Shown piece after piece: positions 1 to 33,500 of a DNA stretch of 64,000 nt. Position 1 is the first letter of the stretch; each line of letters starts with the position of its first letter. The stretch comes from Mobula hypostoma. Its lineage: Eukaryota. Below the pieces are notes generated by a model. That model had not been told where the DNA came from, did not search any database, and saw nothing but the letters and a program-made list of their open reading frames with translations. Location: NCBI RefSeq assembly GCF_963921235.1, contig NC_086097.1, forward strand, positions 82,834,001 through 82,898,000, written 5' to 3'. The position numbers and the translations under genes were made by a program.

Positions 1-1584
1 CAGGAATTCTGCAGATGCTGGAAATTCAAGCAACACACATCAAAGTTGCTGGTGAACGCAGCAGGCCAGGCAGCATCTATAGGAAGAGGCGCAGTCGACG
101 TTTCAGGCCGAGACCCTTCGTCAGGACTAACTGAAGGAAGAGTGAGTAAGGGATTTGAAAGCTGGAGGGGGAGGGGGAGATCCAAAATGATAGGAGAAGA
201 CAGGAGGGGGAGGGATGGAGCCGAGAGCTGGACAGGTGATAGGCAGAAGGGGATACGAGAGGATCATGGGACAGGAGGTCCGGGAAGAAAGACGGGGGGG
301 GGGGTGACCCAGAGGATGGGCAAGAGGTATATTCAGAGGGACAGAGGGAGAAAAAGGAGAGTGAGAGAAAGAATGTGTGCATAAAAAAGAGTAACAGATG
401 GGGTACGAGGGGGAGGTGGGGCCTAGCGGAAGTTAGAGAAGTCAATGTTCATGCCATCAGGTTGGAGGCTACCCATACGGAATATAAGGTGTTGTTCCTC
501 CAACCTGAGTGTGGCTTCATCTTTACAGTAGAGGAGGCCGTGGATAGACATGTCAGAATGGGAATGGGATGTGGAATTAAAATGTGTGGCCACTGGGAGA
601 TCCTGCTTTCTCTGGCGGACAGAGCGTAGATGTTCAGCGAAGCGGTCTCCCAGTCTGCGTCGGGTCTCACCAATATATAAAAGGCCACATCGGGAGCACC
701 GGACGCAGTATATCACCCCAGTCGACTCACAGGTGAAGTGATGCCTCACCTGGAAGGTCTGTTTGGGGCCCTGAATGGTGGTAAGGGTGGAAGTGTAAGG
801 GCATGTGTAGCACTTGTTCCGCTTACACGGATAAGTGCCAGGAGGGAGATCAGTGGGGAGGGATGGGGGGGACGAATGGACAAGGGAGTTGTGCAGGGAG
901 CGATCCCTGCGGAATGCAGAGAGAGGGGGGGAGGGAAAGATATGCTTAGTGGTGGGATCCCGTTGGAGGTGGCGGAAGTTACGGAGAATAATATGTTGGA
1001 CCCGGAGGCTGGTGGGGTGGTAGGTGAGGACCAGGGGAACCCTATTCCTAGTGGGGTGGTGGGAGGATGGAGTGAGAGCAGATGTACGTGAAATGGGGGA
1101 GATGCGTTTAAGAGCAGAGTTGATAGTGGAGGAAGGGAAGCCCCTTTCTTTAAAAAATGAAGACATCTCCCTCGTCCTAGAATGAAAAGCCTCATCCTGA
1201 GAGCAGATGCGGCGGAGACGGAGGAATTGCGAGAAGGGGATGGCGTTTTTGCAAGAGACAGGGTGAGAAGAGGAATAGTCCAGATAGCTGTGAGAGTCAG
1301 TAGGCTTATAGTAGACATCAGTGGATAAGCTGTCTCCAGAGACAGAGACAGAAAGATCTAGAAAGGGGAGGGAGGTGTCAGAAATGGACCAGGTAAACTT
1401 GAGGGCAGGGTGAAAGTTGGAGGCAAAGTTAATAAAGTCAACGAGTTCTGCATGCGTGCAGGAAGCAGCACCAATGCAGTCGTCGATGTAGCGAAGGAAA
1501 AGTGGGGGACAGAGACCAGAATAGGCACGGAACATAGATTGTTCCACAAACCCAACAAAAAGGCAGGCATAGCTAGGACCCATA
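1..1584 (-). mobile_element. Penelope-like retroelement (Neptune-type), 5'-truncated, young; RT C-terminal half + GIY-YIG endonuclease + 3' pLTR
   Basis: Open ORF 423..1583: MGPSYA..RYIDD..FLD (PLE RT), CKRNKCYTC Cys linker, VIYCVRC..LYIGET..R..EH GIY-YIG. The 3' end runs off the window start. Confidence 0.92.
92..129 (-). ncRNA. Minimal type-I hammerhead ribozyme motif in PLE pLTR
   Basis: Reverse complement: TAGTC-CTGACGA-AGG(GTCTCGG)CCT-GAAA-C-GTC^GACTG. Confidence 0.8.
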
Positions 1585-2988
1585 TTATAGGCCGGTTAGC
1601 CTAACGTCGGTGGTGGGGAAACTGCTGGAGTCAGTTATCAAGGATGTGATAACAGCACATTTGGAAAGCGGTGAAATGATCGGACAAAGTCAGCATGGAT
1701 TTGTGAAAGGAAAATCATGTCTGACGAATCTCATAGAATTTTTTGAGGATGTAACTAGTAGAGTGGATAGGGGAGAACCAGTGGATGTGGTATATTTGGA
1801 TTTTCAAAAGGCTTTTGACAAGGTCCCACACAGGAGATTAGTGTGCAAACTTAAAGCACACGGTATTGGGGGTAAGGTATTGGTGTGGGTGGAGAATTGG
1901 TTAGCAGACAGGAAGCAAAGAGTGGGAATAAACGGGACCTTTTCAGAATGGCAGGCGGTGACTAGTGGGGTACCGCAAGGCTCAGTGCTGGGACCCCAGT
2001 TGTTTACAATATATATTAATGACTTGGATGAGGGAATTAAATGCAGCATCTCCAAGTTTGCAGATGACACGAAGCTGGGTGGCAGTGTTAGCAGTGAGGA
2101 GGATGCTAAGAGGGATGCAGGGTGACTTGGATAGGTTGGGTGAGTGGGCAAACTCATGGCAGATGCAATTTAATGTGGATAAATGTGAAGTTATCCACTT
2201 TGGTGGCAAAAATAGGAAAACAGATTATTATCTGAATGGTGGCCGATTAGGAAAAGGGGAGGTGCAACGAGACCTGGGTGTCATTATACACCAGTCATTG
2301 AAAGTGGGCATGCAGGTACAGCAGGCGGTGAAAAAGGCGAACGGTATGCTGGCATTTATAGCGAGAGGATTCGAGTACAGGAGCAGGGAGGTACTACTGC
2401 AGTTGTACAAGGCCTTGGTGAGACCACACCTGGAGTATTGTGTGCAGTTTTGGTCCCCTAATCTGAGGAAAGACATCTTTGCCATAGAGGGAGTACAAAG
2501 AAGGTTCACCAGATTGATTCCTGGGATGGCAGGTCTTTCATATGAAGAAAGATTGGATGAACTGGGCTTGTACTCGTTGGAATTTAGAAGATTGAGGGGG
2601 GATCTGATTGAAACGTATAAGATCCTAAAGGGATTGGACAGGCTAGATGCGGGAAGATTGTTCCCGATGTTGGGAAGGTCCAGAACGAGGGGTCACAGTT
2701 TGAGGATAGAGGGGAAGCCTTTTAGGACCGAGATTAGGAAAAACTTCTTCACACAGAGAGTGGTGAATCTGTGGAATTCTCTGCCACAGCAAACTGTTGA
2801 AGCCAGTTCATTGGCTATGTTTAAGAGGGAGTTAGATATGGCCCTTGTGGCTACAGGGGTCAGGGGGTATGGAGGGAAGGCTGGGTTCTGAGTTGGATGA
2901 TCAGCCATGATCATAATAAATGGTGGTGCAGGCTCGAAGGGCCGAATGGCCTACTCCTGCACCTATTTTCTATGTTTCTATGTTTCTA
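1585..2988 (+). mobile_element. CR1 LINE, 3' part (RT + 3' UTR + (TTTCTATG)n tail), young
   Basis: [33 protein letters not shown] motifs; 1-nt frameshift near 2110; octamer tail at 2967-2988. Confidence 0.93.
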
Positions 2989-3099
2989 TATTATCAAAGG
3001 AGGATATTACAGCTTTATGGCACTCAGTCACTTTTACAGGTTGACCAATTACGAAGAGTAGTTTGCTACTGATGGATGACATACTAAGCTGCTTTCACA

Positions 3100-3269
3100 A
3101 CACACTTAAAATGATGGAGGAACTCAGCAAGTCAGAAAGCATCTGTGGAGCGGAATATACAATTTATTCCCCTCCATAGATGCTGCCTGACTTGCTGAAT
3201 TCCTCCAGTATTTTGTCTGTGTTGTTCAAGATTTCTAGCATCTGCAGAATCCCTTTTGTTTATGATGAA
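3100..3269. mobile_element. Miniature PLE-derived hairpin insertion (two inverted pLTR 3' ends)
   Basis: Left arm is the reverse complement of the right arm; flanked by direct repeat CTGCTTTCACA (3089-3099 and 3270-3280). Confidence 0.75.
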
Positions 3270-3440
3270 CTGCTTTCACAGCAAGTTAATGCGGTGTTAT
3301 TCGACATCTCTGTGGCATAACATAATTGATAAAACTCTAATGGTGTTGTATTATGCATTACCAGGAAAGTGCACTTTTGTTTTTTGTGATTTTAAAAGGA
3401 TGCTGTAATCTATATTAATGCTGTTTCATACTGCTTTTAG

Positions 3441-3578
3441 ATTTGAAACCTTGGGACAAGAAATGAACAATCTGGAGTCTCGGATCAATGAAGTAAATAA
3501 AGCAGCAAACCACCTGATAGAGAGTGGCCACCCCAGCACTCGGGAAGTTAAAACATGTCAGGATCATGTGAACCAAAG
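3441..3578 (+). CDS. sptb: sptb exon (138 nt, phase 2-2): [10 protein letters not shown]...QDHVNQR
   Basis: cttttag|A TTT GAA ... CAA AG|gtacg. Confidence 0.92.
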
Positions 3579-6500
3579 GTACGCCTTCAATTTCTTTTCA
3601 GTTGCAGAAGATGGGATTTGAAGTAGCTTTTTTTTTGACTTGAGAAAGAGTGTTCCAAGCCTCAGAAAATAAGTGGAAAGATTATTTATCCTATTTAACT
3701 CTTCTTGAAAGATGCACACAGGTTATTTGTCCTTCCGCATTTGGTGCCTAACTTCTTCCTTTCAATGGATCTTTCCCTTTTTCTTTTGTATTCTTCAGTA
3801 TGCATTAATTCATCACACTTATTGAATAGCAGTACGTTTTTGTCACAGGATATTTACTTTGTCACAGCAGGCAGGCGGTTATCCAAGTATATAAGCAAAA
3901 TCCTGTGGTTGCTGGAAATTTGAGATAAAACAGAAAATTCTACAAGTACTCAGCAGGATAGGTAGCATTTATGGAAAGACCATTAGACAGTGATTGGGAA
4001 GGATAGAGGCACCAGGACTTAGAACAAAGAAACATAGAAACATAGAAACATAGAAAATAGGTGCAGGAGTAGGCCATTCGGCCCTTCGAGCCTGCACCGC
4101 CATTTATTATGATCATGGCTGATCATCCAACTCAGAACCCTGCCCCAGCCTTCCCTCCATACCCCCTGACCCCTGTAGCCACAAGGGCCATATCTAACTC
4201 CCTCTTAAATATAACCAATGAACTGGCCTCAACTGTTTCCTGTGGCAGAGAATTCCACAGATTCACCACTCTCTGTGTGAAGAAGTTTTTCCTAATCTCG
4301 GTCCTAAAAGGCTTCCCCTCTATCCTCAAATTGTGGCCCCTCGTTCTGGACTTCCCCAACATTGGGAACAATCTTCCTGCATCTAGCCTGTCCAATCCCT
4401 TTAGGATCTTATACGTTTCAATCAGATCCCCCCTCAATCTTCTAAATTCCAACGAGTACAAGCCCAGTTCATCCAGTCTTTCTTCATATGAAAGTCCAGC
4501 CATCCCAGGAATCAATCTGGTGAACCTTCTTTGTACTCCCTCTATGGCAAAGATGTCTTTCCTCAGATTAGGGGACCAAAACTGCACACAATACTCCAGG
4601 TGTGGTCTCACCAAGGCCTTGTACAACTGCAGTAGTACCTCCCTGCTCCTGTACTCGAATCCTCTCGCTATAAATGCCAGCATACCATTTGCCTTTTTCA
4701 CCGCCTGCTGTACCTGCATGCCCACTTTCAATGACTGGTGTATAATGACATCCAGGTCTCGTTGCACCTCCCCTTTTCCTAATCGGCCACCATTCAGATA
4801 ATAAAGCAACACACATCAAAGTTGCTGGTGAACGCAGCAGGCCAAGCAGCATCTATAGGAAGAGGCGCAGTCGACGTTTCAGGCCGAGACCCTTCGTCAG
4901 GACTAACTGAAGGAAGAGTGAGTAAGGGATTTGAAAGCTGGAGGGGGAGGGGGAGATGCAAAATGATAGGAGAAGACAGGAGGGGGAGGGATAGAGCCGA
5001 GAGCTGGACAGGTGATAGGCAAAAGGGGATACGAGAGGATCATGGGACAGGAGGTCCGGGAAGAAAGACGGGGGGGGGGGGTTGACCCAGAGGATGGGCA
5101 AGAGGTATATTCAGAGGGACAGAGGGAGAAAAAGGAGAGTGAGAGAAAGAATGTGTGCATAAAAATGAGTAACAGATGGGGTACGAGGGGGAGGTGGGGC
5201 CTAGCGGAAGTTAGAGAAGTCAATGTTCATGCCATCAGGTTGGAGGCTACCCAGACGGAATATAAGGTGTTGTTCCTCCAACCTGAGTGTGGCTTCATCT
5301 TTACAGTAGAGGAGGCCGTGGATAGACATGTCAGAATGGGAATGGGATGTGGAATTAAAATGTGTGGCCACTGGGAGATCCTGCTTTCTCTGGCGGACAG
5401 AGCGTAGATGTTCAGCAAAGCGGTCTCCCAGTCTGCGTCGGGTCTCACCAATATATAAAAGGCCACATCGGGAGCACCGGACGCAGTATATCACCCCAGT
5501 CGACTCACAGGTGAAGTGATGCCTCACCTGGAAGGACTGTTTGGGGCCCTGAATGGTGGTAAGGGAGGAAGTGTAAGGGCATGTGTAGCACTTGTTCCGC
5601 TTACACGATAAGTGCCAGGAGGGAGATCAGTGGGGAGGGATGGGGGGGACGAATGGACAAGGGAGTTGTGTAGGGAGCGATCCCTGCGGAATGCAGAGAG
5701 AGGGGGGGAGGGAAAGATGTGCTTAGTGGTGGGATCCTGTTGGAGGTGGCGGAAGTTACGGAGAATAATATGTTGGACCCGGAGGCTGGTGGGGTGGTAG
5801 GTGAGGACCAGGGGAACCCTATTCCTAGTGGGGTGGTGGGAGGATGGAGTGAGAGCAGATGTACGTGAAATGGGGGAGATGCGTTTAAGAGCAGAGTTGA
5901 TAGTGGAGGAAGGGAAGCCCCTTTCTTTAAAAAATGAAGACATCTCCCTCGTCCTAGAATGAAAAGCCTCATCCTGAGAGCAGATGCGGCGGAGACAGAG
6001 GAATTGCGAGAAGGGGATGGCGTTTTTGCAAGAGACAGGGTGAGAAGAGGAATAGTCCAGATAGCTGTGAGAGTCAGTAGGCTTATAGTAGACATCAGTG
6101 GATAAGCTGTCTCCAGAGACAGAGACAGAAAGATCTAGAAAGGGGAGGGAGGTGTCGGAAATGGACCAGGTAAACTTGAGGGCAGGGTGAAAGTTGGAGG
6201 CAAAGTTAATAAAGTCAACGAGTTCTGCATGCGTGCAGGAAGCAGCGCCAATGCAGTCGTCGATGTAGCGAAGGAAAAGTGGGGGACAGATACCAGAATA
6301 GGCACGGAACATAGATTGTTCCACAAACCCAACAAAAAGGCAGGCATAGCTAGGACCCATACGGGTGCCCATAGCTACACCTTTAGTTTGGAGGAAATGG
6401 GAGGAGCAAAAGGAGAAATTATTAAGAGTAAGGACTAATTCCGCTAGACGGAGCAGAGTGGTGGTAGAGGGGAACTGATTAGGTCTGACCACACTTTGCT

Positions 6501-9500
6501 CTCGGCTCTATCCCTCCCCCTCCTGTCTTCTCCTATCATTTTGCATCTCCCCCTCCCCCTCCAGCTTTCAAATCCCTTACTCACTCTTCCTTCAGTTAGT
6601 CCTGACGAAGGGTCTCGGCCTGAAACGTCGACTGCGCCTCTTCCTATAGATGCTGCTTGGCCTGTTGCGTTCACCAGCAACTTTGATGTGTGTTGCTTGA
6701 ATTTCCAGCATCTGCAGAATTCCTGTTGTTTGCGTTTAAATTCAGATAATAATCTGTTTTCCTATTTTTGCCACCAAAGTGGATAACTTTACATTTATCC
6801 ACATTAAATTGCATCTGCCATGAATTTGCCCACTCACCCAACCTATCCAAGTCACCCTGCATCCTCTTAGCATCCTCCTCACAGCTAACACTGCCGCCCA
6901 GCTTCGTGTCATCCGCAAACTTGGAGATGCTGCATTTAATTCCCTCATCCAAGTCATTAATATATATTGTAAACAACTGGGGTCCCAGCACTGAGCCTTG
7001 CGGTACCCCACTAGTCACCACCTGCCATTCTGAAAAGGTCCCGTTTATTCCCACTCTTTGCTTCCTGTCTGCTAACCAATTCTCCACCCACACCAATACC
7101 TTACCCCCAATACCGTGTGCTTTAAGTTTGCACACTAATCTCCTGTGTGGGACCTTGTCAAAAGCCTTTTGAAAATCCAAATATACCACATCCACTGGTT
7201 CTCCCCTATCCACTCTACTAGTTACATCCTCAAAAAATTCTATGAGATTCGTCAGACATGATTTTCCTTTCACAAATCCATGCTGACTTTGTCCAATCAT
7301 TTCACCGCTTTCCAAATGTGCTGTTATCCCATCCTTGATAACTGACTCCAGCAGTTTCCCCACCACCGACGTTAGGCTAACCGGTCTATAATTCCCCAGT
7401 TTCTCTCTCCCTCCTTTTTTAAAAAGTGGGGTTACATTAGCCACCCTCCAATCCTCAGGAACTAGTCCAGAATCTAACGAGTTTTGAAAAATTATCACTA
7501 ATGCATCCACTATTTCTTGGGCTACTTCCTTAAGCACTCTAGGATGCAGACCATCTGGCCCTGGGGATGTAACAGTGTAACCCAGTCCAGGTCCTTCAGC
7601 TCATGATGTTGTGCCGAATTTTTAACCTACTCCAAAATCAATCTTGCCCTTCCCTCCTTCATAAACCTTTATTTTCTATCATCCACGTGCCTGTCTAAAA
7701 TTCTCTTAAATATCTCTTATATATCTGGCCTCTACCACCTCCCCAGCAGTGTTTTCCAGGCACCTACCAGTCTCTGTCTGAAATAAAACTCCCTTTGACA
7801 TCCAATCATACTTTCCTCCAATCACCTTAAAATTATACTCTCTCACATTAGCCAGTCCCACCAGAGGGAAAAGAAATCATTGGCTCTCCATCCTATCTAG
7901 ACTTCTTGTCAAGTCACCTCTCATCCCCCTTTCCAAAGAGAAAGCCCTAGCTCACTGAACCTATCTTCAGAAGGCATGCCCACTATCCTAGGCAGCATTC
8001 TGGTCAGACTCTATACCTTTTCTGGAGATTCAAATCCTTCCCATAATGAGGTGACCAAACGGAACACAATGCTCCAAATGTGGTCGAACCAGAGTCTGAT
8101 ACGGCTGCAACATTACCTCACAGCTCTTGAACTCAAATTCCTGACCAACAAAGAACAACATACCATATGTCGCCTTAACGACCCGATCAGCTTCCACGGC
8201 AACACTGAGGGATCCATGGATGTAAACCATAAGAGCTTTCTGATCCTCCACCCTGTTAAGAATCCTGTCATTAATCCTGTATTCTGCCTTCAAGTTTTAC
8301 CTCCCAAAGTGAAATACTCCACACATTTTCAGATTGAATTCCATCTGCCACTTCTCAGCCCAGCTCTGCATCCTATCCATGTCCCTTTATAGCCTACAAC
8401 AAACTTCTGCACTATCCACAACACCACTAAATCAGATATTGTATGATTTGATTTGTGGAGGGAAGAGGCAGAGGAAGGACAGGTATTCAGGGAGTGGATA
8501 CAGCTGGTAGGAGATGGAAGGCCAGTCCTTGAGATTGGATGGAGGTGAATATTTTCTTTGCCCTGTAGGCTTCTCATAATAGTACCCATGGTGGGAAGAC
8601 CTTGTGCTCTGGGAACTGGCCAAAGTTAGGTACTTCCTGGGCAACATGATCCAAGTTTTCCCTCCAGTGCTCCATAAAGAGAGTCAATGGGAAAACTACC
8701 TCATTTCAGAAATGACATCAGTGGCACGAGGTGATTAAAACCAGTAAAAGCTGTTTGAATTTTCAGAGTAACTATCAGAAATGGTCATTAGCAAGTACCA
8801 GTATGACACTGCTGAAAAAGGTGGCATTATGTAGTGGAACTCGAAGGCAAATTTGACTTAGCAAACCTGTGACACATAACTTTGGAATAACCATTCTATC
8901 TTGGATCTTCTTGTAAGGAAAGAAGTGCCTAGAGTCCATTATTGACAGGATTGGTTGTACTGGCAATGGAGAGAGTTCTGCATGGGAAACTCAGTAGAGA
9001 CACTGTTGCTGGAAATGCTGTGGTAGCCTAGTCTTGAGCAATGAGATGGTCAGTGGAGATGGCTGATTCACAACTGATGCTTGATGCTTGACCTCAGGGG
9101 TCTCTGCATAGTTGCTGTTTCTGTCCCATGAACTATTTGAGAAACACACTTATCTTCACCCTGATCCAGATGAAGGTTCCCAACCCAAAATATTGAATGT
9201 ACATTAAACTCCACAAATTTTGCCTGAACTACTGAGTTCCTCCATAATATGTCTTAGTCGATAAGATCATAAGATATACGAGCAGAATTAGGCCACCAGG
9301 CCATTGAAACTGCTCCACCATTTCATCATGGCCATTCCATTTTCCCCCTCAGCTCCAATCTCCTCTCTTCTCCCCATATCCTTTCATACTCTGACAAATC
9401 AAGAAACTATCAATCCCTGCCTTAAATTTACCCAATGACTTGACCTCCACAGCTGCCTGTGGCAATGAATTCCACAGATTCACCCTTCTCTGGCAGAAGA

Positions 9501-12500
9501 ATTTCCTTCTCATCTCCATTCTAAAAGGACTGAGGGTGTGTCCTCTGGTCTTAGACTCCCTACCATCGGAAACATCCTCTTCACATCCACTCTATCAAGG
9601 TCTTTCAACATTCGATAGTTTTCAATGAGGCCACTCTTCTTAGGTCCTTATTTTCATCATGTAGCTTTCTTATAACTCTCTATTTGGGGAGCTTGGTGAA
9701 CCCACATGCCCAAGGTTGTACAAGTAAAGGAATTTAATTTGGTGATTGTCAGCATCACTACAATGCTCAGCTGTATCCTGGAAGCAGTTGACCTAAGTAT
9801 GGAGGTGTGAGTTGGCACTAATTTGGGCCAAGAATAAGGCTTTTATTTAGATTTTATAAACTATATAGATTTCCAACAAGAAACAATCTGCAAATGCTGG
9901 AAATCAAGGTAACACACACAAAATGCTGGAGGAACTCAGTAGACCAGGCAGCATCTGCGGAAAAGAGTAAATAGTCAATGTTTCAGGCCGACACCTTTCT
10001 TCAGGACTGGTAAAAAGAGATGAGAAGTCAGGGTAAGAAGGTGAGGAGAGGGATGGGAGAAGTACAAGGTGGTAGGTGACAGGTGAAACTAGGAGAAGGG
10101 AAGTGGTGAAGTAAAGAGCTGAGAAGTCGATTAGTGAAAGAGATACAGAGCTGGAGAAGGGGGAATCTGACCGGAGAGGACAGAAGTCCATGGGAAAAGG
10201 GGAAAGTTTTCAACATTTTTAATAACTTGATTCTTCTGAAGTTGCAACTCATCCACAACTTCTTTTCTAACTTATGGTATTCTTATGGATATAAATCAAA
10301 TGAGACCTCGAAGTCTGTCTAAATTCAAAACCTTTCTCAATACTGTATATATTATAGCAGCTTCCTGTTAAGATATTGGTTGATCTGATGCAAATTTGTT
10401 TTTGTTTTGAGCTCAGTTTTAAAAACGATGCAAGGAAGAGTGAGAGATTAATATGCGCACAGTAAATATCATCCAGAAGAACTTGATGTAGGCAGAGCAT
10501 AATGTCAATTGCACAAAGCTGACTGGGCCATATGAAGTTGGTGTGCTGCCTGCAACAAAATAATTGTTGCACATTAACTTTGCTTCATTTTTCTTGCTAG
10601 CATTTAGAGCTTTGAATAATGTAAACACTTATTCGCTGACTGATAATGGTTGATCCCAATATGTTTAAGCATTGAGGCTTCATACTGCAACCATGTGCAA
10701 AAAAAAAAGCATTTAATTGTAGGGCTAGAGATTTTCCAGTTTACTGCCTGACTGGAGATATTCTGATTTCAATATCAAAACAACTGAGATGAATGTAGTA
10801 CAGTGCAGGCCATTTGGCCCAAGATGTTGTGCTGGCCCTTTAACCTATCCAAGATCAATTTAACTCCTCCCTCCCTTGTAGCCCTCCATTTCTCTTTGAG
10901 TTTCTTAAGCGCCCCTAATGTGTCTCCCTCTACCACCCACCCCCCTCAATACTTACCACTCTCTGTATGTTAAAAAAAAATCTACTTCTGACTCCCCCTA
11001 TATTTTCCTGCAATCACCTTAAAATTATCCCCTCTCACACTACCTATTGCTGCCCTGGCTAAAAGGTGTTGGCTGTCCACTCTGTTGATGACTCTTATCA
11101 TCTACAATCCTCTATCAAGTCCCCTCTTATCCTCCTTCACTCAAAAGGGAAAAGCCCAGTTTACTCATCCTAAGCTCATAAGACATGCTGACTAATCCAG
11201 GCATCATCCTGGGTAAATCTCCTCTGCACCCTCTCTACAGCTTCCATATTCTTCCTGTAATGAGAACAGAACACAATATACCAAGTGTGGTCAAGCTTTA
11301 TAGTGGTGCATCTCAACCCCGTCCAAATGAAGGCCAACAAACCATACACCTTCTTAACCGCTCTAACAACATATGGAATAGTAGTGGTTACTGTTGGCAT
11401 AACGCTTTACAGCACTGCCTGTAAAAGCAGGGTTCAATTCTCACTACAGTCTGTAAGGAATTTATAATTTCCCCCTGTGACTGCGTGGGTTTCCTCTGTG
11501 TGCTCTGGTTCCCTCCAGCATTTTAAAGATAGACAGCATGAGTTAGGGTTAGTATGTTGCAGGAATGCTGTGTTGGCACTGGAACCATGGTGACACTTTG
11601 GGACTGCCTCAGTACATCCCTATCTGTGTTGGTCACTGACGTAAACATTGCACTTCACTGTATGTCTTGATGTACATGTGACAAATAAAGTTACTCTTTA
11701 TCTTTAACTTTGAAGGATCCATGGATATGCACCCAACAATCCCTCTGTTTCTCCACACTGCCAAGTATCCTGCAATTAATCATGTAATCTGGCTTCACGT
11801 TTGACCTTCCAAAGAGTATCACCTCTCTCTTTTTCAGGTTGAACTCCATCTGCCACTTTTCTGCCCAGCTCGGCATCATTTCAGTGTCCCGTTGTAACCT
11901 ACAACACTATCTGCAACACCACCCATCTTCCACTACCAAGGGGATAGGAAAATTAGTGAGAAAACCAACAGTGTGTGTGGAGCATTGTGATCTTCAAAAC
12001 ATGTGAACAGAGGGGAGAACTATTAGCCAGGAGATGCATGATTTCTCAACTGAGGTATTCTTGCTCTGTGAAGGAGCCCATTTGGTGCATTGAATGTTTG
12101 CCACCCCCCAGAATATTCCCATATGACTCATTCACCCGTTTATTTCCCAGTGACCTCTATCCTATGTCCTGCTTGGTGGTGCAATAATATCAGCGCCGAA
12201 CTCCGGAGTGAAGGTTCCTGAGTTCGAATCCAAGTCGGGTTGAGCATCGAGCTAGCAACTCGGCCTCGTAAGAATAAGAATAGCTTTCTACGGAAACACC
12301 ATCAAAAGACGATGCCCCGATAACTCCACTGCCGAGTTAAGGGCTATTCTTCTTCTTCTTCTTCTTCCATTCTATGCTCGTCAATTCCTCCAACTTTCCT
12401 GCCACTGACCTACATTAAGGGGTACATTATAGTAGCCAATTAACCTAGCACCATGTGTTTGGGACGTGGGAGGAGAATGGAGCACGTAGGGCAACCCATG

Positions 12501-21500: not shown

Positions 21501-24500
21501 TTCCTATTCGTTATCGATAGAGGAATTCATCCTGTGTACGCTGCTGTGTTCTTTTGATTGACTATAACAAAATCAGCACAGTCCCCTAGTGCAAAGAATA
21601 GACCCTACTCATTGTCTTGCTGCATGAAGTAATGTCATAATCCAACAGTAAATTTCCTGACTTTGTGTTGTCAGGAGAACAAGTTTAGATGTGTCATCTT
21701 CATCTCTTTCTTCATCTTCATATTTCTTGCCTTGATGTTTTGATATAATAATGTCAATGGTTGTACCCTCCAAATCTTTATTTCTATTAAAATTCCACAA
21801 TTTCATTCAAGATGTAACATTCCGGAATTGTAACATTCAAGATGATTGTCAATACCTTCAAGTTCTTCACAGTGTCTAACTTGTTGAAGTAGTAAAATTG
21901 TTTCATTTTCATTACAGGCTGTTTCTGGCATCTCCAAGCCTGAATGCTTGAAACCACAGTGAGCAAAATAGTTCTGAGATGTCTTATGCTAGTTAGAAAC
22001 TGCTTGTCAACATTTTCCTGTCACAATTAAGTGGCATAGTGTCCCAAATATGCAAGGGGAATCCCAAATATTTTCTTGATTAGTTTTTGTTCTTAAAGAG
22101 TTGTCCCAAATCAATGCTGCTCCAATTAACCAAAGGCCCAATTAACTGGAATCAACTGTATAATAATGATTTGGATGAGAATGTAAGTAGCCTGATTAGT
22201 TAGTTTGCAGATGACACCAGAATTGTTGAGCAGTAAAGCAAGTTGTTTGAAGTTACAACTAGGTGTTAATCAACTAAGAAAGTGAACAAGGAATGGTGGA
22301 TGGAATTTAACTCAGACAAGGGTGAAATGATGCATTTTGAGATGTTAAATCAGGGCAGAACATATGCAGTAAATGTTGCATTCTCTGGAGAATGTTGGTG
22401 AACAGAGAAACCTTGGAGTACATGCATAGCTGCCTGAACATTGCAGTAGGATAGCGAAGAAAGCATATGGTATGCTTAGGAAGAGGTATAGTTGACTGTA
22501 CCTCTTCCTATAGATGCTGCCTGGCCTGCTGCATTCACCAGCATTTTTTGTGTGTGTTGCTTGAATTTCCAGCATCTGCAGATTTCCTCGTATATGGTAT
22601 GCTTGCCTTCATCAACTGAGGCACAGAGTATAAGAGTTGGGGTATTATTTTACAGTAGTACAAAATTTTTGATAGGCCATACTTGGAGCATTGTGTGCAG
22701 TTCTGGTTGCCGTACTACAGCAAGCATGTGATTACGGAAATGATTCATAATGATGGGGCCTTGGTTGGCAGGCTGGGTCCATTTTCCCAGGAGCAAGGAG
22801 GCTGGGCAGTGAAATAACAGAAGTATATAAGATTATGAGAGCCATAGAATGGGTAGATAACTAGGGTCTTTATTTCCCAAGCTAGTGATATCTAAACCAG
22901 GGGACTTGGCTGGAAGGTGGGAGGGAGAAGATTTAATAGAAATCTATGGAGTAAATTTTTTACACAGAGTCATCTACATCTGGAATGGAGGTGATGGAGG
23001 CTGCAACAATTACAATGTTTAAGAGGCATCTGGACAGGTATTGAAAGACAAAGGCATTAAGACATACCAAATTATTATAGGCTCGTGGAATTACTATAGA
23101 TAGACATGATGATCTGCATAGATTCAGTGGGTCAAAGGGCCTTGTTACTATGCCACACAGATTTACAGCCCTGTGAATCTAATGCCACTGAACCAAGAAT
23201 AAAGCTCTTTGAAATCAAAAATAAAATAGTCAGGAGAAGATGGTGGCGCGATGCAGCTCACAGTGGCCACTCCAGTGGTGACGTCTGTTATTTGTCAAGT
23301 AGGGTGCCATGCACAATCCTGATTTGATGGAGACGGACGTGAGAGCATGGAGGAACATCTGGTGAAACTTCTGAAATGCCTGCTTCGCTGCTGCTGCTAC
23401 TGTGTGGTCCAGAATCTCTGGAGGAGAAGGCCTCGAGTCCTCGGCTTTGCTTGTTGCTCGGCGGTCAGGTCGGGGTCGAAGCACTCGGCAGAGGATGTTG
23501 CTCGGAGAGGCTGTGTCAGAGGGGCTGGTCGGAGGCTCAAGGTTTTCAGACAGACTCAGAGTCTGCTGCGGTCGGGTGCTTCCAATGGTGCTGCATCGGC
23601 GAGTTGGCGGCACTTGGAGGTTCATGGCAGGGAGAGTTTCTCCTTTCTGCCGCCTGCATGGGATGATGAGTCTATCGGGTTTTTGAGACTTTTATTTACC
23701 GTGCCCATGGTCTGCTCTTTATCAAATTATGGTATTGCTTTGCACTGCTGTAACGATATGTTATAATTATGTGGTTTTGTCAGCTTTAGTCTTGGTTTGT
23801 GCTGTGTTTTCTTGTGATATCATTCTGGAGGAACGTTGTATCATTTTTTAATGCATGCATTTCTAAATGACAATAAATGAGGACTGAGTGTCCTCATGAT
23901 CTAGAAACAATTACTGGAAATATTTGGAAGGTCTGCCAACATTTGTGGAGTGAAATAGGTAATGTTTCATGTTCATACATGTTTGTCATCTCATCAAAGT
24001 TTTCTGGTTCTTCCTAAACCGTGTGTAAAATGCAACCCAGCTGATTAGAACATCATTCAGCAATGATCATTATATTTGTACTAATGTTGTCATAGACTGT
24101 TCAATCATCTCTATCTGCTTATCTTTCTGAAGCCATGTCATTTAGCAAACATGCATTCAACACCCTACTCCATTGATGGACATGAAACCATTCAATATTC
24201 TTGCCAATGGTTCATGCTGTGAGGTAGGAAGAAGAAAATCACAGTCCTTTTCGCCCTTGAATCCAATTAATACAGTTTAATTAAGCAATTAAATTAAATC
24301 TGATGTCTAGAGTAGGCAGTGTGATCATCTCTGCATGAGTCAAACTAGAATATATTCTTTGAAAAAAAGTTTAAGCAATTGACATACTAATTTGACAAAT
24401 TGGGTGGTAGGGTGGAGATGCATTTCTACTAAAGGAGGTGTAAGGTGTTCCTTCCCCCCAATAGCCTGCAGGTCATCCTTGGGCAAGGTGTGGTACCTGC

Positions 24501-27500: not shown

Positions 27501-30500
27501 TATATTCTCCTGTCCCTTATAAATCTCCAACCTGGCTACCTTATAACTCTCAGGAGCCCTGAGAGCTCTTTGCTTCTTAAACCTTAAGTATACTTCCTTC
27601 TTCTGCTTGACTAGATGTTCCACATCTCTTGTCAACCATGATTCCTTCATCCTACCATCTTTTCCCTGTCATAATGGAACAAAAATATCCAGAACCCTAT
27701 ATTACCTATACTGTCAGCTCTTATCCCAGTCCAGGGCTATGTTGAATGTTAAGGAATTGCTTCTGAAATGCCCACACAACAAGGAAGAATTTGACTGCCC
27801 CTGAATTATATTTGACTATTAATCTAATAGGAGGCAGGTTGCCTTAGAAGTGAATTCAAAGCACTTTTCATTAGACATATAGAGTAACACACTCAAAATG
27901 CTGAAGGAACTCAGCAGGGGTCAGGCAGCGTCTGTGGAGTAGAATAAAGAGTCAACATTTCAGGCTGGGATCTGCTGAATTCCTCCAGAATTTTGTGTGT
28001 GATGCTCTGGATTTACAATATCTGCAGGATTGCTTGTATTTATCATAACACATTTTTTTTTGTGCTGTACCATTATCAGGAAGGAAAGCAGCTGATGGAT
28101 GAGAAGCCAGGTTTTAAACCAGTTGTCTCGGAGAAACTGAAGGAACTGCATGATCAGTGGGAAATCCTGGATTCCACCACTAAAGACAAGGCTGACCGGC
28201 TGTTCCAAGCAAACCGATCAGAGCTTTTCTCACAGGGCTGTGAAGACCTGAACAAGTGGATGGATGACCTGGAGTCACAGCTACATTCTGAAGACTTTGG
28301 AAAGGACTTGACCAGTGTCAATATCCTGCTGAAAAAGTTACAGGTTATGACTCTATTTACTATTTCTCTCTCTACACGGATGGCTCCTGACATGCATTTC
28401 TTGTTCGTATGTAAACTAGTTTAACTGGCTAGTTCAACTAGGTTCCACTGGATGTTTTGTAGAAACATTTGAAATTAATGACAATTCTGCAACTTATGAG
28501 TAACTACCTCCCTGTAGCTCCTATCAATCATCTCCTCATTCTCCCATATGAGCCAAAGGTCTCAGATTGCAGCTCCAGTTTCTTAATATGGTCTCTAAGA
28601 AGCTGTAGCTCGATGCATTTAGTGCAGATGTTGATATCAGGGAGATAGTCTTCCCATAACTCACACAATGAACATATCACTAACTCTGTACCCACTCTCT
28701 GCCCACTAGCTAAATACTGATAGACAAAGAAAGACAACTTATTAGAAACTAATATAGAACCTCCGACTGTTTTTACCGAAGCCTGTAGAGCCACACCACA
28801 TACACGTCCCCTCTTTTTATTGGTGCAAATAAAACTCACTCCTGACAAGACTTGTCTTTTCAAATGGGTGCTGCTTCACAATGATGACTCTCTCTCACTT
28901 GCTACTTCAAACAGCACCCACTAGTGGACAAATTGTGCACACAATCAAAAATACTGTGAAGATGATCGTAGTTACGCAATGGAGTTATACTTAAGTAGAA
29001 TAATTATTTTTCAAGCCCCTCTCAGGTGTTTATGTTTACTTAATATTATTTATAATTGAGATTCATTGGTACATAATCAGAGTCCTTATTTGCTATGGCA
29101 CTCATTATGGGAACTCCAGCAGTATGAATTTGCTGAGTGCATATTGAGTTGATGTATGTCTATGATCCGCTGCGTTGTTTCATAACACTTGGATATTAGA
29201 TAGTGTCTTACTCAAATAAGAACAATTTACTATAACATAAAAATATTCTCTCTTGATTTTGCTCACCTGTATTTAGAGAAGTATCTCAGGAATTGATAGT
29301 CATGAACTGCTGAATTAAACACTACTTCGCCTTTTGTTGGTGATCACGCTAATTTTTCAATTATGTAACATGTCTATTATTATATTTAAGAATGATTCAG
29401 AAACATTATTTTCAAAGTAATTTTGTGGCTCTCAAATCGTCTTCTCTGAAAGTCCTTCAGCTCTATCTGTTGCTCTTGTCTTTTTGCCAGTTTTTAAAAT
29501 TTCATATCAAATTATGGAACAGATGATGACTTTCACATAAAAACATCAGAATATGGGATGTGATAAAACCTGATTTGTCATCAAGCAGACATGTGAGATG
29601 ATATCTAACCATTGGCCAGCAGTCCTGGTCTTATTTCCCTTTTTGTCAGTTAAATGGATTGTTTTGGTTGTGAACAGATGACAGAAAATCAAGTGGAAGT
29701 GCGACAGAAAGAGGTGGAGGATCTTCTAAGTCAGGCCACAATTCTCTCTCAAGAAAGACAATTGGAGACTGATGGGAAGGAAAAGAAAATAGAGAAGAGA
29801 TTCTTACAGCTGATGAGCCCACTGCAGGAACGGCGTCAAAGTCTTCTCTCATCAAAGAAGAGCTTTCAGTTTTATCGGGATCTGGAAGATGAATCTGTAA
29901 GAAGTTACAGTAATTTTTTTCACAGATTAACTAAAGTCATGAATTGCACAGATATTAATTAAAGTAATTTTTGAATATTTATACCTTCACATGTTCTCTC
30001 TTAGCTTTGGGTGAAAGAACGGATGCCCTTAGCAACGAGCACAGACCATGGCCAGAATTTGCAGGCAGTGCAGCTCCTAATGAAAAAGAATAAGGTAGGT
30101 CATGTTAATTGAAAGCTTCCATCAAGCATTTCAATGAAGTTTTGTACATGGAATATTGAACTCAAAGAATAACCTTTATTTGTCTGTTGCTTTTAAAATG
30201 ATAATTTTGATTAACTTATGTTTGACTAGAAGTTTAGGCACTGGACTGGCTAGAGCTAAGGTCTACCCTGTTTTATTTCATCATTGTGTGTGAGTTGTTA
30301 CATATCACAAATTACCTCAATATAGAGTCTGATATCCCACTACTGCTGTTAAATCATCATGTAAAGGACTTTGAAACAGTATGGTTTTCATCATAATTCC
30401 TTGATAGTTATAATTGTTGTAGGGGAATTGAGGCAGAGAATTAAGTGATAGAAAGTCTTTTCCTTTATGATCATACCATAACACTCATTCCTGTTGATTA

Positions 30501-33500
30501 ATTCCACTGAAATTTTCACAAAACATCTCACAATCTTCAGGTAAGCCAGATCCGAGGTGGTTGGCAACGCCCAGCACACCACCCACAGGATTCTTGCAGT
30601 TGTACATGGCACACCCCCACATTTGTGGGCTTTGAAGAAGTTGGATATTTTTGATTACCAATGACATTAAAAAAATATTGAAAAACCTGATAATTTAAAA
30701 AGTTAAAAATAATCAAAACACCGGCTTGAATTACTCTGTGAGGTAAGATCAAATGTTGACAAGGCTAACACAGATGAATACATAGATTTTAAGAAGGAAT
30801 ACAAAAATGAAACGGTCAACAGCAACGTGGATAAGCTTAAAGGCAGAAAGTGGAGGGTCAGGGTAATATTATATTACCAGACCAGAAGATGTAGACAGTA
30901 GTGTTTCCAAGGACCAGTGTTGGTGCAGCTACTTTATTTTTTATAAATAATTTAGAGAGGGAACGGCAGGTCAGAATTTCCAAACTTGAGAATGACGCAT
31001 GGCTTGTCAGCTGAGCATACTGTGTTGAGGAAAATAATAGACTGCCGTATCCTGGCAGAATGGGGAGATGAGATTCAGAAGAAATTGTCAGAGAAGGATG
31101 AAGGAGTTCACTTTGGCAAAAAGAATAAGGGACACATACTGTATCTAGAGGTTGTTTGGGATTGGAGGGAGCTGGGTGACTATATGTATATAAATCCTAG
31201 AAAGAGACACATGTTAAAAAGCTGGTTGGTAAAATATATGAACCACTAGATTATTAAACAGATGCTCAAAATTTAAGAGCAGGAATGATATATTGAACCA
31301 ATATAGACCAGGGAAAGGTGGGGAAATGACACAAAGTGGTTTGCTCAACTGTGGGCTTGGTGGGTACAAGGACAATCAAAATCTTTGCAATTAACTCATT
31401 TAAGTCAAAGATATTTAAATCATCTTATACATCGCACACTGTCACAGTTGTTGCTCCCCATTCAAGTGAATGAACCAACTACTAGATGGCATGGTGGTGG
31501 AGTTCAGAAGTCTGCACTTCATCACCATCTTCCATGAGGAGTGCAGCACTGGAAGGCAATGATAACACTGGACAACAAATTTCTTCAAAAGTGTTGCTTA
31601 CTCAGAATTTTTTGTTGATTATAGACCACATGAAGCTAACACAAGTATAATTTCAGACTACTTGTATCACATTGGAATTTGGAGAAACAAGAAATTAACT
31701 TTTATTGAATATAATGAGTTTAATTGCATAATGGTGCTGATGCTTTGCCATACTTCAACTAAGCTAAAAATGTTTTTTCGGTATTTTTCATCTGTAGTCA
31801 GTGTCTGAGGCTTCTTGCTTAAGTGTCCCAACAATAATCAGCCAGCATTGATGGATTCCAGTTGCCCTGCATTTCTCCATGGCTACAATGTCCTGGTGAA
31901 GCCTTTCACCATGCTCGTCAAGATCTGCAGGGAAGAAGTCTAAATGGGAATGCAGAAAATGAATCTTTAGTGACATGTTGCACTTCATGGTTTTGTATGC
32001 TTGAAGCATGTTGTCAATCTACTGCACATAGTTTGGTGCTCTGTAGTTGCCAAGAAAATTTTTGACAACATTCTTGAATATCTTCTATATGATTTTGTTC
32101 GGACCCACTAAAAGTTCTTCATACCACATGTCAGTGATGACCTGTTTGATTTGTGGACCAGAAAATGCCTTCCTTAATCTTGACATCAGATATTCTGAAT
32201 TGAATTATGAATTGGAATTGGCTGGTCTGATCAGAGGGGATGATGAGACGGCCTACAGGGACGAGGTCCAGCACCTGGCTGCGTGGTGTGCCGACAACAA
32301 TCTGGCCCTTAACACCCAGAAGACCAAGGAGATTGTTGTGGAATTCAGGCATGCCAGGAGTCACACTCACGTCCCCATCTACATCAACGGAACTGTAGTG
32401 GAGCATGTATCAAGCTTCAGATTCCTTGGTGTCCACATTTCCGAGAATCTCACCTGGTCCCTGAACTCCTCCATTCTGATCAAAAAGGCGCATCAGCACC
32501 TTTATTTCCTGCAGAGCCTGAAGAAAGCTCACCTCTGTCCCAGGATACTGACGGACTTTTACCACTGTACCATTGAGAGCATACTCACCAACTGCATCTC
32601 AGTGTGGTATGGCAATTGTCCCGTATCGGACCGCAAAGCACTTCAGCATGTGGTGAAAACTGCCCAGCGGATTATCGGCACCCAATTGCCCACCATTGAG
32701 AACATCTACCATAAACGCTGCCTGGGCAGGGTGAAAAGCATTATCGGGAATGCATCTCACCCTAACCATGGACTTTTTACTCTCCTCCCATCCGGTAGGC
32801 GCTACAGGAGCCTCCACTCCCGCACCAGCAAGCACAGGAAGAGCTCCTTCCCTGAGGCTGTGACCCTGCTGAATCTCACATCACAGCGCTAAGCAGTATT
32901 GCACCCATATTGTACTGTCTCAGTACTTTTATATTTGTGTGCTGTAGCACTTTTTTATTCGCAGTTATTTTGTAAATAACACTATTCTTTGCATTTCTGG
33001 TCAGATGCTAAATGCATTTCATTGGCTTTGTATCTGAACTCGGCACAATGACAATAAAGTTGAATCTAATCTAATCTAACCTAAAATATAGGCAATTTCA
33101 AAAAATGGTGTGTGATTGGGAAATTTTATGTTCATTTTCATGGTCAGCAGCCCAAAGTCTATAAATTACACCCAAAAGTATTCAGGAAGCAAAATTTTGT
33201 TGTCCAGTGTAATCAGCTGTGAGGGAGTGTGGGAGGTCTACAGAAAATTTTGAGTCTGCACTTGAAGACAATTTGCATTGCGAACAATTAACATTACTGT
33301 TTCACTTCAGCAAATTCTTCAAAACACAATCCATCTGATTTTGTTTGTCTTTTCTTCTTCTGGGAGAATAATTAATAGCAAATTAAAGTTTATAATTATT
33401 TGGACTTCGGAAGTCCACTTGGTTACCTCCACTATGTTGCAACTATGACTTCTCTTTTGTTTCCACAGACTTTGCAGAAGGAAATTCAAGGGCATCAGCC

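What the first reader, a model, noticed from the sequence alone, without database searches (positions are those of the whole stretch)
92..6634. Three intact minimal hammerhead ribozymes inside Penelope-like element terminal repeats
Seen: the identical 38-nt motif TAGTC CTGACGA AGG-GTCTCGG-CCT GAAA C GTC GACTG occurs at 92-129 (-), 4868-4905 (-) and 6597-6634 (+). It has the full catalytic core (CUGAnGA, GAAA, GUC), a 5-bp stem I and a 3-bp stem II. Stem III is reduced to the self-complementary ACGU. Known: PLE pLTRs carry such minimal type-I hammerheads, thought to cleave as dimers through the palindromic stem III. Inference: this young Neptune-type family has an active ribozyme that processes its RNA.
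Basis: partly seen in the sequence, partly recalled or inferred. Interest (0 to 1): 0.7.

Follow-up and report, generated by a model that had tools for sequence, protein, structure and literature searches.

The report
Penelope retrotransposon ends carrying minimal hammerheads
These three identical motifs are copies of the small "hammerhead" RNA motif that Penelope-type jumping genes are already known to carry in their end repeats; the family clearly preserves the motif, but these copies sit in two truncated insertions in introns of a spectrin gene, were likely copied from uncut RNA, and are predicted not to cut where they now lie.

Summary
Observation confirmed: the 38-nt motif is exact at 92-129(-), 4868-4905(-) and 6597-6634(+); C17 is 6629. 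The three copies belong to only two 5'-truncated insertions, 1.2% apart, of a Penelope-like element (RT, Cys-linker, GIY-YIG; probably Neptune) in beta-spectrin introns. Two are the opposite-strand arms of one insertion with a 13-bp target duplication, so their identity says nothing about selection.

Selection shows elsewhere. Across four organisms' DNA runs, variation inside the motif is CpG decay plus two tolerated changes (N7; U6621C). 22 of 42 distant relatives carry the same fold on the sense strand, with covarying stems.

"Active" is not shown. The long copies run through the cut site. Listed contig ends pile up about 65-110 nt downstream, none at the site. In the two-armed insertion each hammerhead is predicted to be locked in a 201-bp duplex.

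This is a known kind (Cervera and De la Peña 2014), with published activity low, dimer- or protein-dependent. This scan noted the same thing in at least 24 genomes. Ordinary; interest 0.17.

The parts
1..1584 (-). PLE copy A, 5'-truncated: C-terminal ORF part, 3' UTR/pLTR with hammerhead and tail; runs off the window at base 1
   Evidence: 98.8% direct match to 4804-6361 and 98.2% inverted match to 6498-6725; open frame 423-1595
423..1584 (-). Uninterrupted C-terminal ORF remnant of copy A: RT YIDD motif and thumb, C-x4-C-x2-C linker, GIY-YIG endonuclease with internal CxxC; lacks the N-terminal half
   Evidence: matches residues 420-801 of an 803-aa homologue at 53%
92..129 (-). Minimal type-I hammerhead 1; predicted cut after 97
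1584..2992 (+). 5'-truncated LINE (CR1-like; label recalled) joined head to head to copy A; holds the empty target site of copy B near 2225-2237
3442..3578 (+). Host beta-spectrin-like exon; further Spectrin-repeat frames on + from 13248 to 62970
4031..4804 (-). 3' part of a second LINE copy, interrupted by PLE copy B
4792..4804 (.). Left target-site duplication ATTCAGATAATAA (13 bp)
   Evidence: single copy in the empty site
4805..6497 (-). PLE copy B main body, 5'-truncated, one-base frameshift near 5606; 3' end lacks the tail (ends at the 6697 equivalent)
4868..4905 (-). Minimal type-I hammerhead 2; predicted cut after 4873
6498..6739 (+). Inverted pLTR arm of copy B, including a 42-nt tail (6698-6739)
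   Evidence: 99.5% inverted match to 4804-5004; family 3' ends at 6695-6699 and 6731-6737
6597..6634 (+). Minimal type-I hammerhead 3 (stem I 6597-6601/6630-6634; extra A6609; stem II 6610-6613/6618-6621; ACGU 6625-6628; cut after C6629); the only one of the three in the sense of the host pre-mRNA
6583..6613 (+). Predicted competing hairpin that hides CUGA and the 5' side of stems I and II; present in all three copies, not seen as a trend in relatives
6740..6752 (.). Right target-site duplication ATTCAGATAATAA
6740..7600 (-). 5' part of the interrupted LINE (RVT_1 domain)

Best explanation
The motif is the minimal type-I hammerhead that this Penelope-like retrotransposon family keeps in its terminal repeat, and it likely cuts only slowly and conditionally (as a dimer or with the element's protein) in transcripts of intact tandem parent elements, while the three copies here are passengers of two truncated insertions that are predicted not to cut in place. 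Shown: the motif, its place in the pLTR about 300 nt past the ORF stop, its conservation and covariation, the two-insertion anatomy with a target duplication and one-sided tail, and family 3' ends at two sites about 65-70 and 100-110 nt past the cut site. Inferred: reverse transcription starts at those two sites and copies through the hammerhead into the ORF, so the template was uncut (or re-ligated) at its 3' hammerhead. Inferred: the job of cutting is occasional release of unit-length RNA from tandem or read-through transcripts, not a step in every insertion. Predicted: in copy B either strand's hammerhead pairs with the 201-nt opposite arm. Both copies also lack the upstream pLTR that would hold the promoter (known PLE layout).
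For: Within-family variation of 3% or more inside 6597-6634 is CpG transitions plus N7 C>U and U6621C. N7 C>U reaches 17, 16, 7 and 8%, against 8, 7, 1 and 3% for its CpG partner, catalytic G8. Flanks carry 14 lineage-level variants over about 105 nt (5 rows not shown). Top loose ends lie at 6598 (612, 446, 28, 25 contigs) and 6634 (550, 452, 41, 29), the edges of the motif. The 6634 ends rejoin element sequence like the older copy at 9887-10008. 22 of 42 related PLE loci hold the motif on the sense strand, 0 antisense, 0 of 420 shuffles. A search with no pairing rule gives 20 sense hits, 19 with stem I of 3 bp or more. 9 of 9 pairs show two-sided changes, covariation 0.77 against 0.28 shuffled and 0.07-0.14 slid. 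3' ends number 73-130 contigs at each listed position of 6695-6699, against listed 5' ends of 6-19, none at 6630. Both hammerheads of copy B fold into the inverted duplex. Literature: no monomer activity and low dimer activity (PMC4209133); protein-assisted and not needed for insertion (PMC11167929).
Against: No cleavage data exist for this sequence, and all runs were contigs, which cannot show RNA ends. Only 24 of 282 loose-end rows were shown and the rule for choosing them is unclear (6696 is missing for X1), so a small pile at 6630 is not excluded. One 114-bp insertion in the window (22478-22591) folds back exactly at the cut site. The active dimer scores -9.4 against -28.2 kcal/mol for the best competing fold, which could mean no cutting at all. 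The 6598 pile may partly be stubs that start there rather than a family boundary. Depth-weighted contig counts are only a proxy for copy frequency, and X1 may be the source of the window. The alignment for one search was picked with a pairing descriptor and includes related rows.
Confidence: 0.75

Rival explanations
1. One reading: the hammerhead is an efficient ribozyme that routinely processes the element's RNA, giving unit-length (perhaps circular) RNAs that are the templates for insertion.
For: Intact core under selection. One fold-back insertion centred on the cut site. Re-ligated circles would also give copies that run through the site, as proposed in PMC4209133. A few low-depth contigs show short tandem repeats of the hammerhead region, for example 6632 back to 6598.
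Against: No listed pile of ends at 6630. The fold-back centre is also the centre of the natural palindrome GTCGAC, so it needs no cut. Stem II closes with G·U where 20 of 20 core-only hits in relatives end in C. Homologues are slow and not needed for insertion in vitro. 8 of 9 Xenopus dimer elements tested gave no cleavage (bioRxiv 10.64898/2026.07.22.740005).
Confidence: 0.12
2. The fold is kept as a binding or folding signal for the element's protein, or as part of the promoter or 5' leader, and cutting is negligible in this lineage.
For: Unfavourable active-dimer energy, a competing hairpin, a G·U closing pair in most of the family's depth. PMC4209133 states that functions other than cleavage cannot be ruled out.
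Against: Conservation follows catalytic rules: N7 and H17 vary while the CUGA, GA, GAAA and U16.1 columns are invariant or nearly so. The Anolis homologue cuts, and shows loss and partial rescue by C3/G8 changes.
Confidence: 0.1
3. The intronic copies were recruited by the host: hammerhead 3, which is sense to the spectrin pre-mRNA, cuts or tunes that transcript.
For: 6597-6634 is intact and lies on the host's strand.
Against: The copy is about 1% from its siblings, so intactness is expected. Its antisense arm is transcribed 1.5 kb earlier in the same intron and is predicted to pair with it fully.
Confidence: 0.03

Closest known systems
Minimal hammerheads (min-HHR) of metazoan PLE pLTRs, Cervera and De la Peña 2014 (PMC4209133); nearest printed example Acropora digitifera Neptune (Table S1, Fig. 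S3)
   Same: CUGAnGA, an extra base, G-opened stem II, GAAA, palindromic CG, UH. Short stem I, no loop 3, place in the pLTR, solo and opposite-strand pairs. The A. digitifera motif (4-bp stem II, 4-nt loop, CGUC) has the same layout, and is the motif seen in loci L016, L036 and L066, which I reached through this ORF.
   Different: Different stem I and stem II sequence. 10.1-11.1 is G·U here rather than the usual G-C (G·U also occurs in several rows of Fig. S3). No cartilaginous fish is among the rows of Fig. S3 that I read.
PAc (Poseidon of Anolis carolinensis), Frangieh et al. 2024 (PMC11167929)
   Same: pLTR hammerhead upstream of two end sites separated by an optional tail; AT-rich targets. 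The duplication of copy B starts with ATT, the motif PAc nicks most (one case only).
   Different: PAc is Poseidon clade. This element has the extra Cys linker. PAc's start codon lies at stem II; the start of this ORF is not in the window.
Neptune-clade EN+ PLEs (Craig et al. 2021, PMC8557442)
   Same: RT, CX2-5CxxC linker, C-terminal GIY-YIG, 5' truncation, inverted 5' copy, tail at one end only.
   Different: Nothing found. The tail is 42 nt here against the stated 30-40. Clade placement was not confirmed by a tree with labelled references.
Non-LTR retrozymes of animals (PMC7229834; bioRxiv 10.64898/2026.07.22.740005)
   Same: Type-I hammerheads, related to PLE pLTRs.
   Different: Retrozymes are non-coding head-to-tail repeats. 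These copies are attached to a PLE ORF and are not in direct tandem.

Membership tests
PLE minimal type-I hammerhead | Core CUGAnGA ... GAAA ... NUH | tested here: met
PLE minimal type-I hammerhead | Unpaired base between 9 and 10.1 | tested here: met
   A6609; versus 53, 57
PLE minimal type-I hammerhead | G10.1 paired with 11.1 (G-C in the >80% consensus, G·U in several published members) | tested here: met
   G6610·U6621 in these copies; C in 17-31% of family depth; G·U rows in Fig. S3
PLE minimal type-I hammerhead | Palindromic 15.2-16.2 with no real stem III | tested here: met
   ACGU 6625-6628
PLE minimal type-I hammerhead | Sense orientation inside the pLTR; covarying stems I and II | tested here: met
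PLE minimal type-I hammerhead | Core-dependent self-cleavage as a dimer or with protein | not testable with these tools
   only contigs were on offer; needs a bench assay
EN+ PLE, Neptune clade | One ORF with RT then C-terminal GIY-YIG | tested here: met
   C-terminal half only: YIDD and GIY-YIG (E 2.6e-4 and 3.3e-5); homologues at 42-53% with RVT_1
EN+ PLE, Neptune clade | CX2-5CxxC linker between RT and EN (shared with Nematis) | tested here: met
   [10 protein letters not shown]257, C262 and C265 invariant in 12 of 12
EN+ PLE, Neptune clade | pLTR, inverted 5'-truncated copy, one-sided tail | tested here: met
EN+ PLE, Neptune clade | RT phylogeny groups it with named Neptune rather than Nematis | not tested
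   no labelled references were in hand; indirect support from the A. digitifera Neptune motif in related loci and from only Neptune and Poseidon being found in the vertebrates sampled
Non-LTR retrozyme | Non-coding head-to-tail repeats with a hammerhead in each unit | tested here: not met
   copies are ORF-linked and not in direct tandem
Rfam hammerhead families | Score at the gathering threshold | tested here: not met
   0 hits in the window; no hammerhead family up to E 10 in 6400-6800

The most novel reading that the evidence does not exclude
The dominant lineage has tuned its hammerhead into a position-dependent switch. At the 3' pLTR, the upstream hairpin (6583-6613) and the G·U closing pair keep it off so that reverse transcription can read through. 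At the 5' pLTR, where the transcript would start just before the motif, it is free and cuts once the element's protein binds, removing the leader. Rare insertions that fold back exactly at the cut site, such as 22478-22591, would be genomic footprints of cleavage in vivo, which has not been shown for a PLE in the papers I read.
Probability: 0.1. Interest if true: 0.6.

Novelty: new member of a known kind. Interest (0 to 1): 0.17.

Why it matters
What PLE hammerheads do in vivo is still open: the papers read report low activity, protein dependence and no RNA ends at the site. This family is young and very abundant (102,259 and 75,154 contigs laid on 243 bp in two runs), and it carries a natural G·U/G-C pair of variants at the base of stem II. 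That makes it good material for counting insertion ends and for a cleavage assay. The three motifs themselves add a member to a described class and change nothing.

Tried and rejected
Own genome: none is held, so there is no genome-wide count. Exact-pattern scans of viral and metagenome contigs found 0. Rfam found no hammerhead; I read this as the models not covering minimal variants. Fold z-scores of the motif were not significant (-1.24 alone, about 0 in context), so thermodynamic stability is no evidence here.

Identity of the three copies as evidence of selection: rejected.

Upstream hairpin as a conserved lock: not supported. Native stem probability is 0.002 or less, against 0.14 or 0.56-0.58 without the upstream 50 nt. 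But 33.5% of 200 upstream shuffles also fall under 0.01, 2 of 40 fall as low as native, and the mean rank over 17 motifs is 0.54.

Enrichment of 5' ends at the cut site: not seen among 24 of 282 listed rows. I chose that stretch to avoid the 6598 and 6634 piles.

RNA evidence: runs X9 and X17 are only guessed to be RNA and are contigs. They span the cut site with no dip in depth, which shows neither strand nor ends, so I draw nothing from it.

Core-only matches at 38264-38291 and 58712-58744 fail the stem test. Haemagglutinin rows (E 0.4-1) are chance. Lünse et al. (PMC5785218) is not held; I saw only its title and a review's passage on it.
Full report
Observation. The 38-nt string occurs exactly three times, at the stated coordinates and strands. 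There is no other match within 3 mismatches and none in 100 shuffles. Numbered on the + copy: stem I is 6597-6601 with 6630-6634, the core is CUGAcGA 6602-6608, GAAA 6622-6625 and CGUC 6626-6629, and the cut falls after C6629. Rfam gives nothing at gathering score and no hammerhead family up to E 10. A descriptor scan of the window finds the three copies, two older perfect-core copies (9973-10004, 44549-44582) and one hit with a core mismatch, against 0 in 10 shuffles.

Stem II. The 4-bp GGGU/GCCU stem after an unpaired A6609 has 0.87-0.97. In DNA contigs of four coded organisms, 17-31% of depth reads C at 6621, which makes G-C in the second register and A·C in the first. In related elements a search with no pairing rule gave 20 sense hits in 42 loci: 19 form stem II in the second register, 0 in the first, and all 20 end in C. 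This matches the extra base and G10.1 of the published consensus (PMC4209133: main text parts 1-2 and supplement parts 1-2 of 3 read).

Anatomy. Self-comparison gives two insertions. Copy A (1-1584, minus) is 5'-truncated, has an open C-terminal frame and abuts a LINE head to head. Copy B is a minus-strand body (4805-6497, frameshifted near 5606) plus an inverted arm (6498-6739). It sits inside a second LINE between 13-bp duplications ATTCAGATAATAA, and the empty site is visible in the first LINE. The body ends at the 6697 equivalent, while the inverted arm carries 42 more bases. This is the inverted 5' copy and one-sided tail described for PLEs (PMC8557442, passages). A and B differ at 19 of 1559 columns and the arms of B at 1 of 201, so three identical 38-mers are expected (about 0.68 for A against B). 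The host gene is a beta-spectrin on the + strand: the exon at 3442-3578 matches a spectrin beta chain at E 8e-11, and 11 of 80 further frames tested hit Spectrin. A cartilaginous-fish host is my inference from recall and from earlier notes; no call tested it. The label CR1 for the LINEs is also recalled.

The element. The ORF remnant holds YIDD, a C-x4-C-x2-C linker and a GIY-YIG domain. 106 longer homologues were found at E 1e-20 or better, the best 53% identical. The three linker cysteines are invariant in 12 of 12 aligned. That linker marks Neptune and Nematis. The preprint 10.64898/2026.07.22.740005 (parts 1-3 of 5 read; its supplements are closed and may bear on the shark family it sampled) found only Neptune and Poseidon in its vertebrates. 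Neptune is therefore likely, but no tree was built.

Selection on the motif. No genome is held, so I laid public contigs on the pLTR: 102,259, 75,154, 3,885 and 4,115 contigs from four runs, one of which may be the source. Inside the motif, variants of 3% or more are CpG transitions, plus 6621 and an excess at N7 (17, 16, 7, 8% against 8, 7, 1, 3% at G8). The flanks 6560-6596 and 6635-6702 carry 14 lineage-level variants (5 rows not shown). The largest listed loose-end piles sit at the motif's edges, 6598 and 6634. The 6634 ends rejoin element sequence and match the older family. The 6598 pile (agreement 0.4-0.47) may mix that family with stubs that start there, as earlier notes on other genomes suggest. 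Further out, 80 metagenome loci were fetched. 50 reached the end of the ORF and 42 of those had 250 nt or more downstream. 22 of the 42 carry the motif 70-152 nt past the ORF match on the sense strand, 0 antisense, 0 of 420 shuffles; several are duplicates. In 18 distinct motifs (15 from those loci, 3 from the window), 9 of 9 pairs show two-sided changes, covariation 0.77 against 0.28 shuffled. These rows were chosen with a pairing rule and are related, so the core-only test (19 of 20 with stem I of 3 bp or more) is the fairer one.

Is it active? Not shown. Family 3' ends cluster at 6695-6699 (73-130 contigs per listed position in X1) and 6731-6737 (245-359). These fit the two reverse-transcription starts that make the tail in Anolis (PMC11167929, parts 1-2 of 4 read). 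Copying from there through 6629 into the ORF needs a template that is continuous at the cut site (inference from target-primed copying). Listed 5' ends in 6608-6700 are small (6-19 contigs) and none is at 6630, but only 24 of 282 rows were shown. One insertion, 22478-22591 with a 13-bp duplication, folds back exactly at the site. The natural palindrome GTCGAC has the same centre, so this does not decide the matter. No two hammerheads here are in direct tandem. Folding 4804-6740 on either strand puts the whole motif into the inverted duplex. In local context a hairpin at 6583-6613 hides the core, but it is not a trend among relatives. The active dimer is about 19 kcal/mol above the best competing fold in a model that ignores the core's tertiary contacts. 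Published homologues gave no monomer activity and low dimer activity. The Anolis one cuts only with protein, is dispensable for insertion in vitro and showed no RNA-seq ends. A review states that they likely cut as dimers at very low rates (PMC6765202, passages).

Verdict. This is a genuine PLE minimal hammerhead under selection, likely a slow conditional cutter in parent tandem elements and likely silent in these three copies. It is a new member of a known kind. Searches for a paper on this motif in sharks found none (0 papers with Penelope, Neptune, shark and hammerhead; 4 listed, not read). The library lacks most subscription journals, and the 2026 preprint did sample one cartilaginous fish. 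This scan has 100 earlier findings with the same words in at least 24 genomes; they are unchecked notes and are not counted as support.

Noticed in passing
window 22465-22604: 114-bp pLTR stub with a 13-bp duplication (ATATGGTATGCTT), folded back exactly at the predicted cut site, which is also the centre of the palindrome GTCGAC.
   Followed up: partly
window 1577-1595: PLE copy A and a LINE are joined 5' end to 5' end with about 1 base of overlap, both truncated. It could be a chimeric insertion or a later deletion.
   Followed up: no
window 3097-3257, 3899-3981, 9165-9248, 9879-10009, 27875-28035, 42302-42377, 44545-44647, 54228-54307: Older, decayed pLTR fragments of related families, several as inverted pairs. 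9973-10004 has A-U at 10.1-11.1; 44549-44582 has a different stem I.
   Followed up: partly
window 42471-43877 (+): An old, fragmented second PLE ORF, about 28-47% identical to the homologues.
   Followed up: no
window 3442-62970 (+): Beta-spectrin-like host gene with at least 12 Spectrin-repeat frames across the window.
   Followed up: partly
contigs laid on window 6498-6740: Low-depth joints that go back to about 6598-6602 (from 6632, 6634, 6688, 6708), that is short tandem units containing the hammerhead. They may be retrozyme-like derivatives elsewhere in these genomes.
   Followed up: no
window 6487-6497: About 10 bases at the inversion junction of copy B may belong to neither arm; this cannot be judged without a full-length copy.
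   Followed up: no
L063:1154-1190 (+): A distant PLE whose stem II (GGGTCTCTGACCC) closely resembles this family's, but with no stem I pairing.
   Followed up: no
window 32047-32889, 36183-37217, 58765-59991, 60546-61097: Further retroelement-like frames (RVT_1, ALKBH8_N-like, C2H2) in the introns.
   Followed up: no
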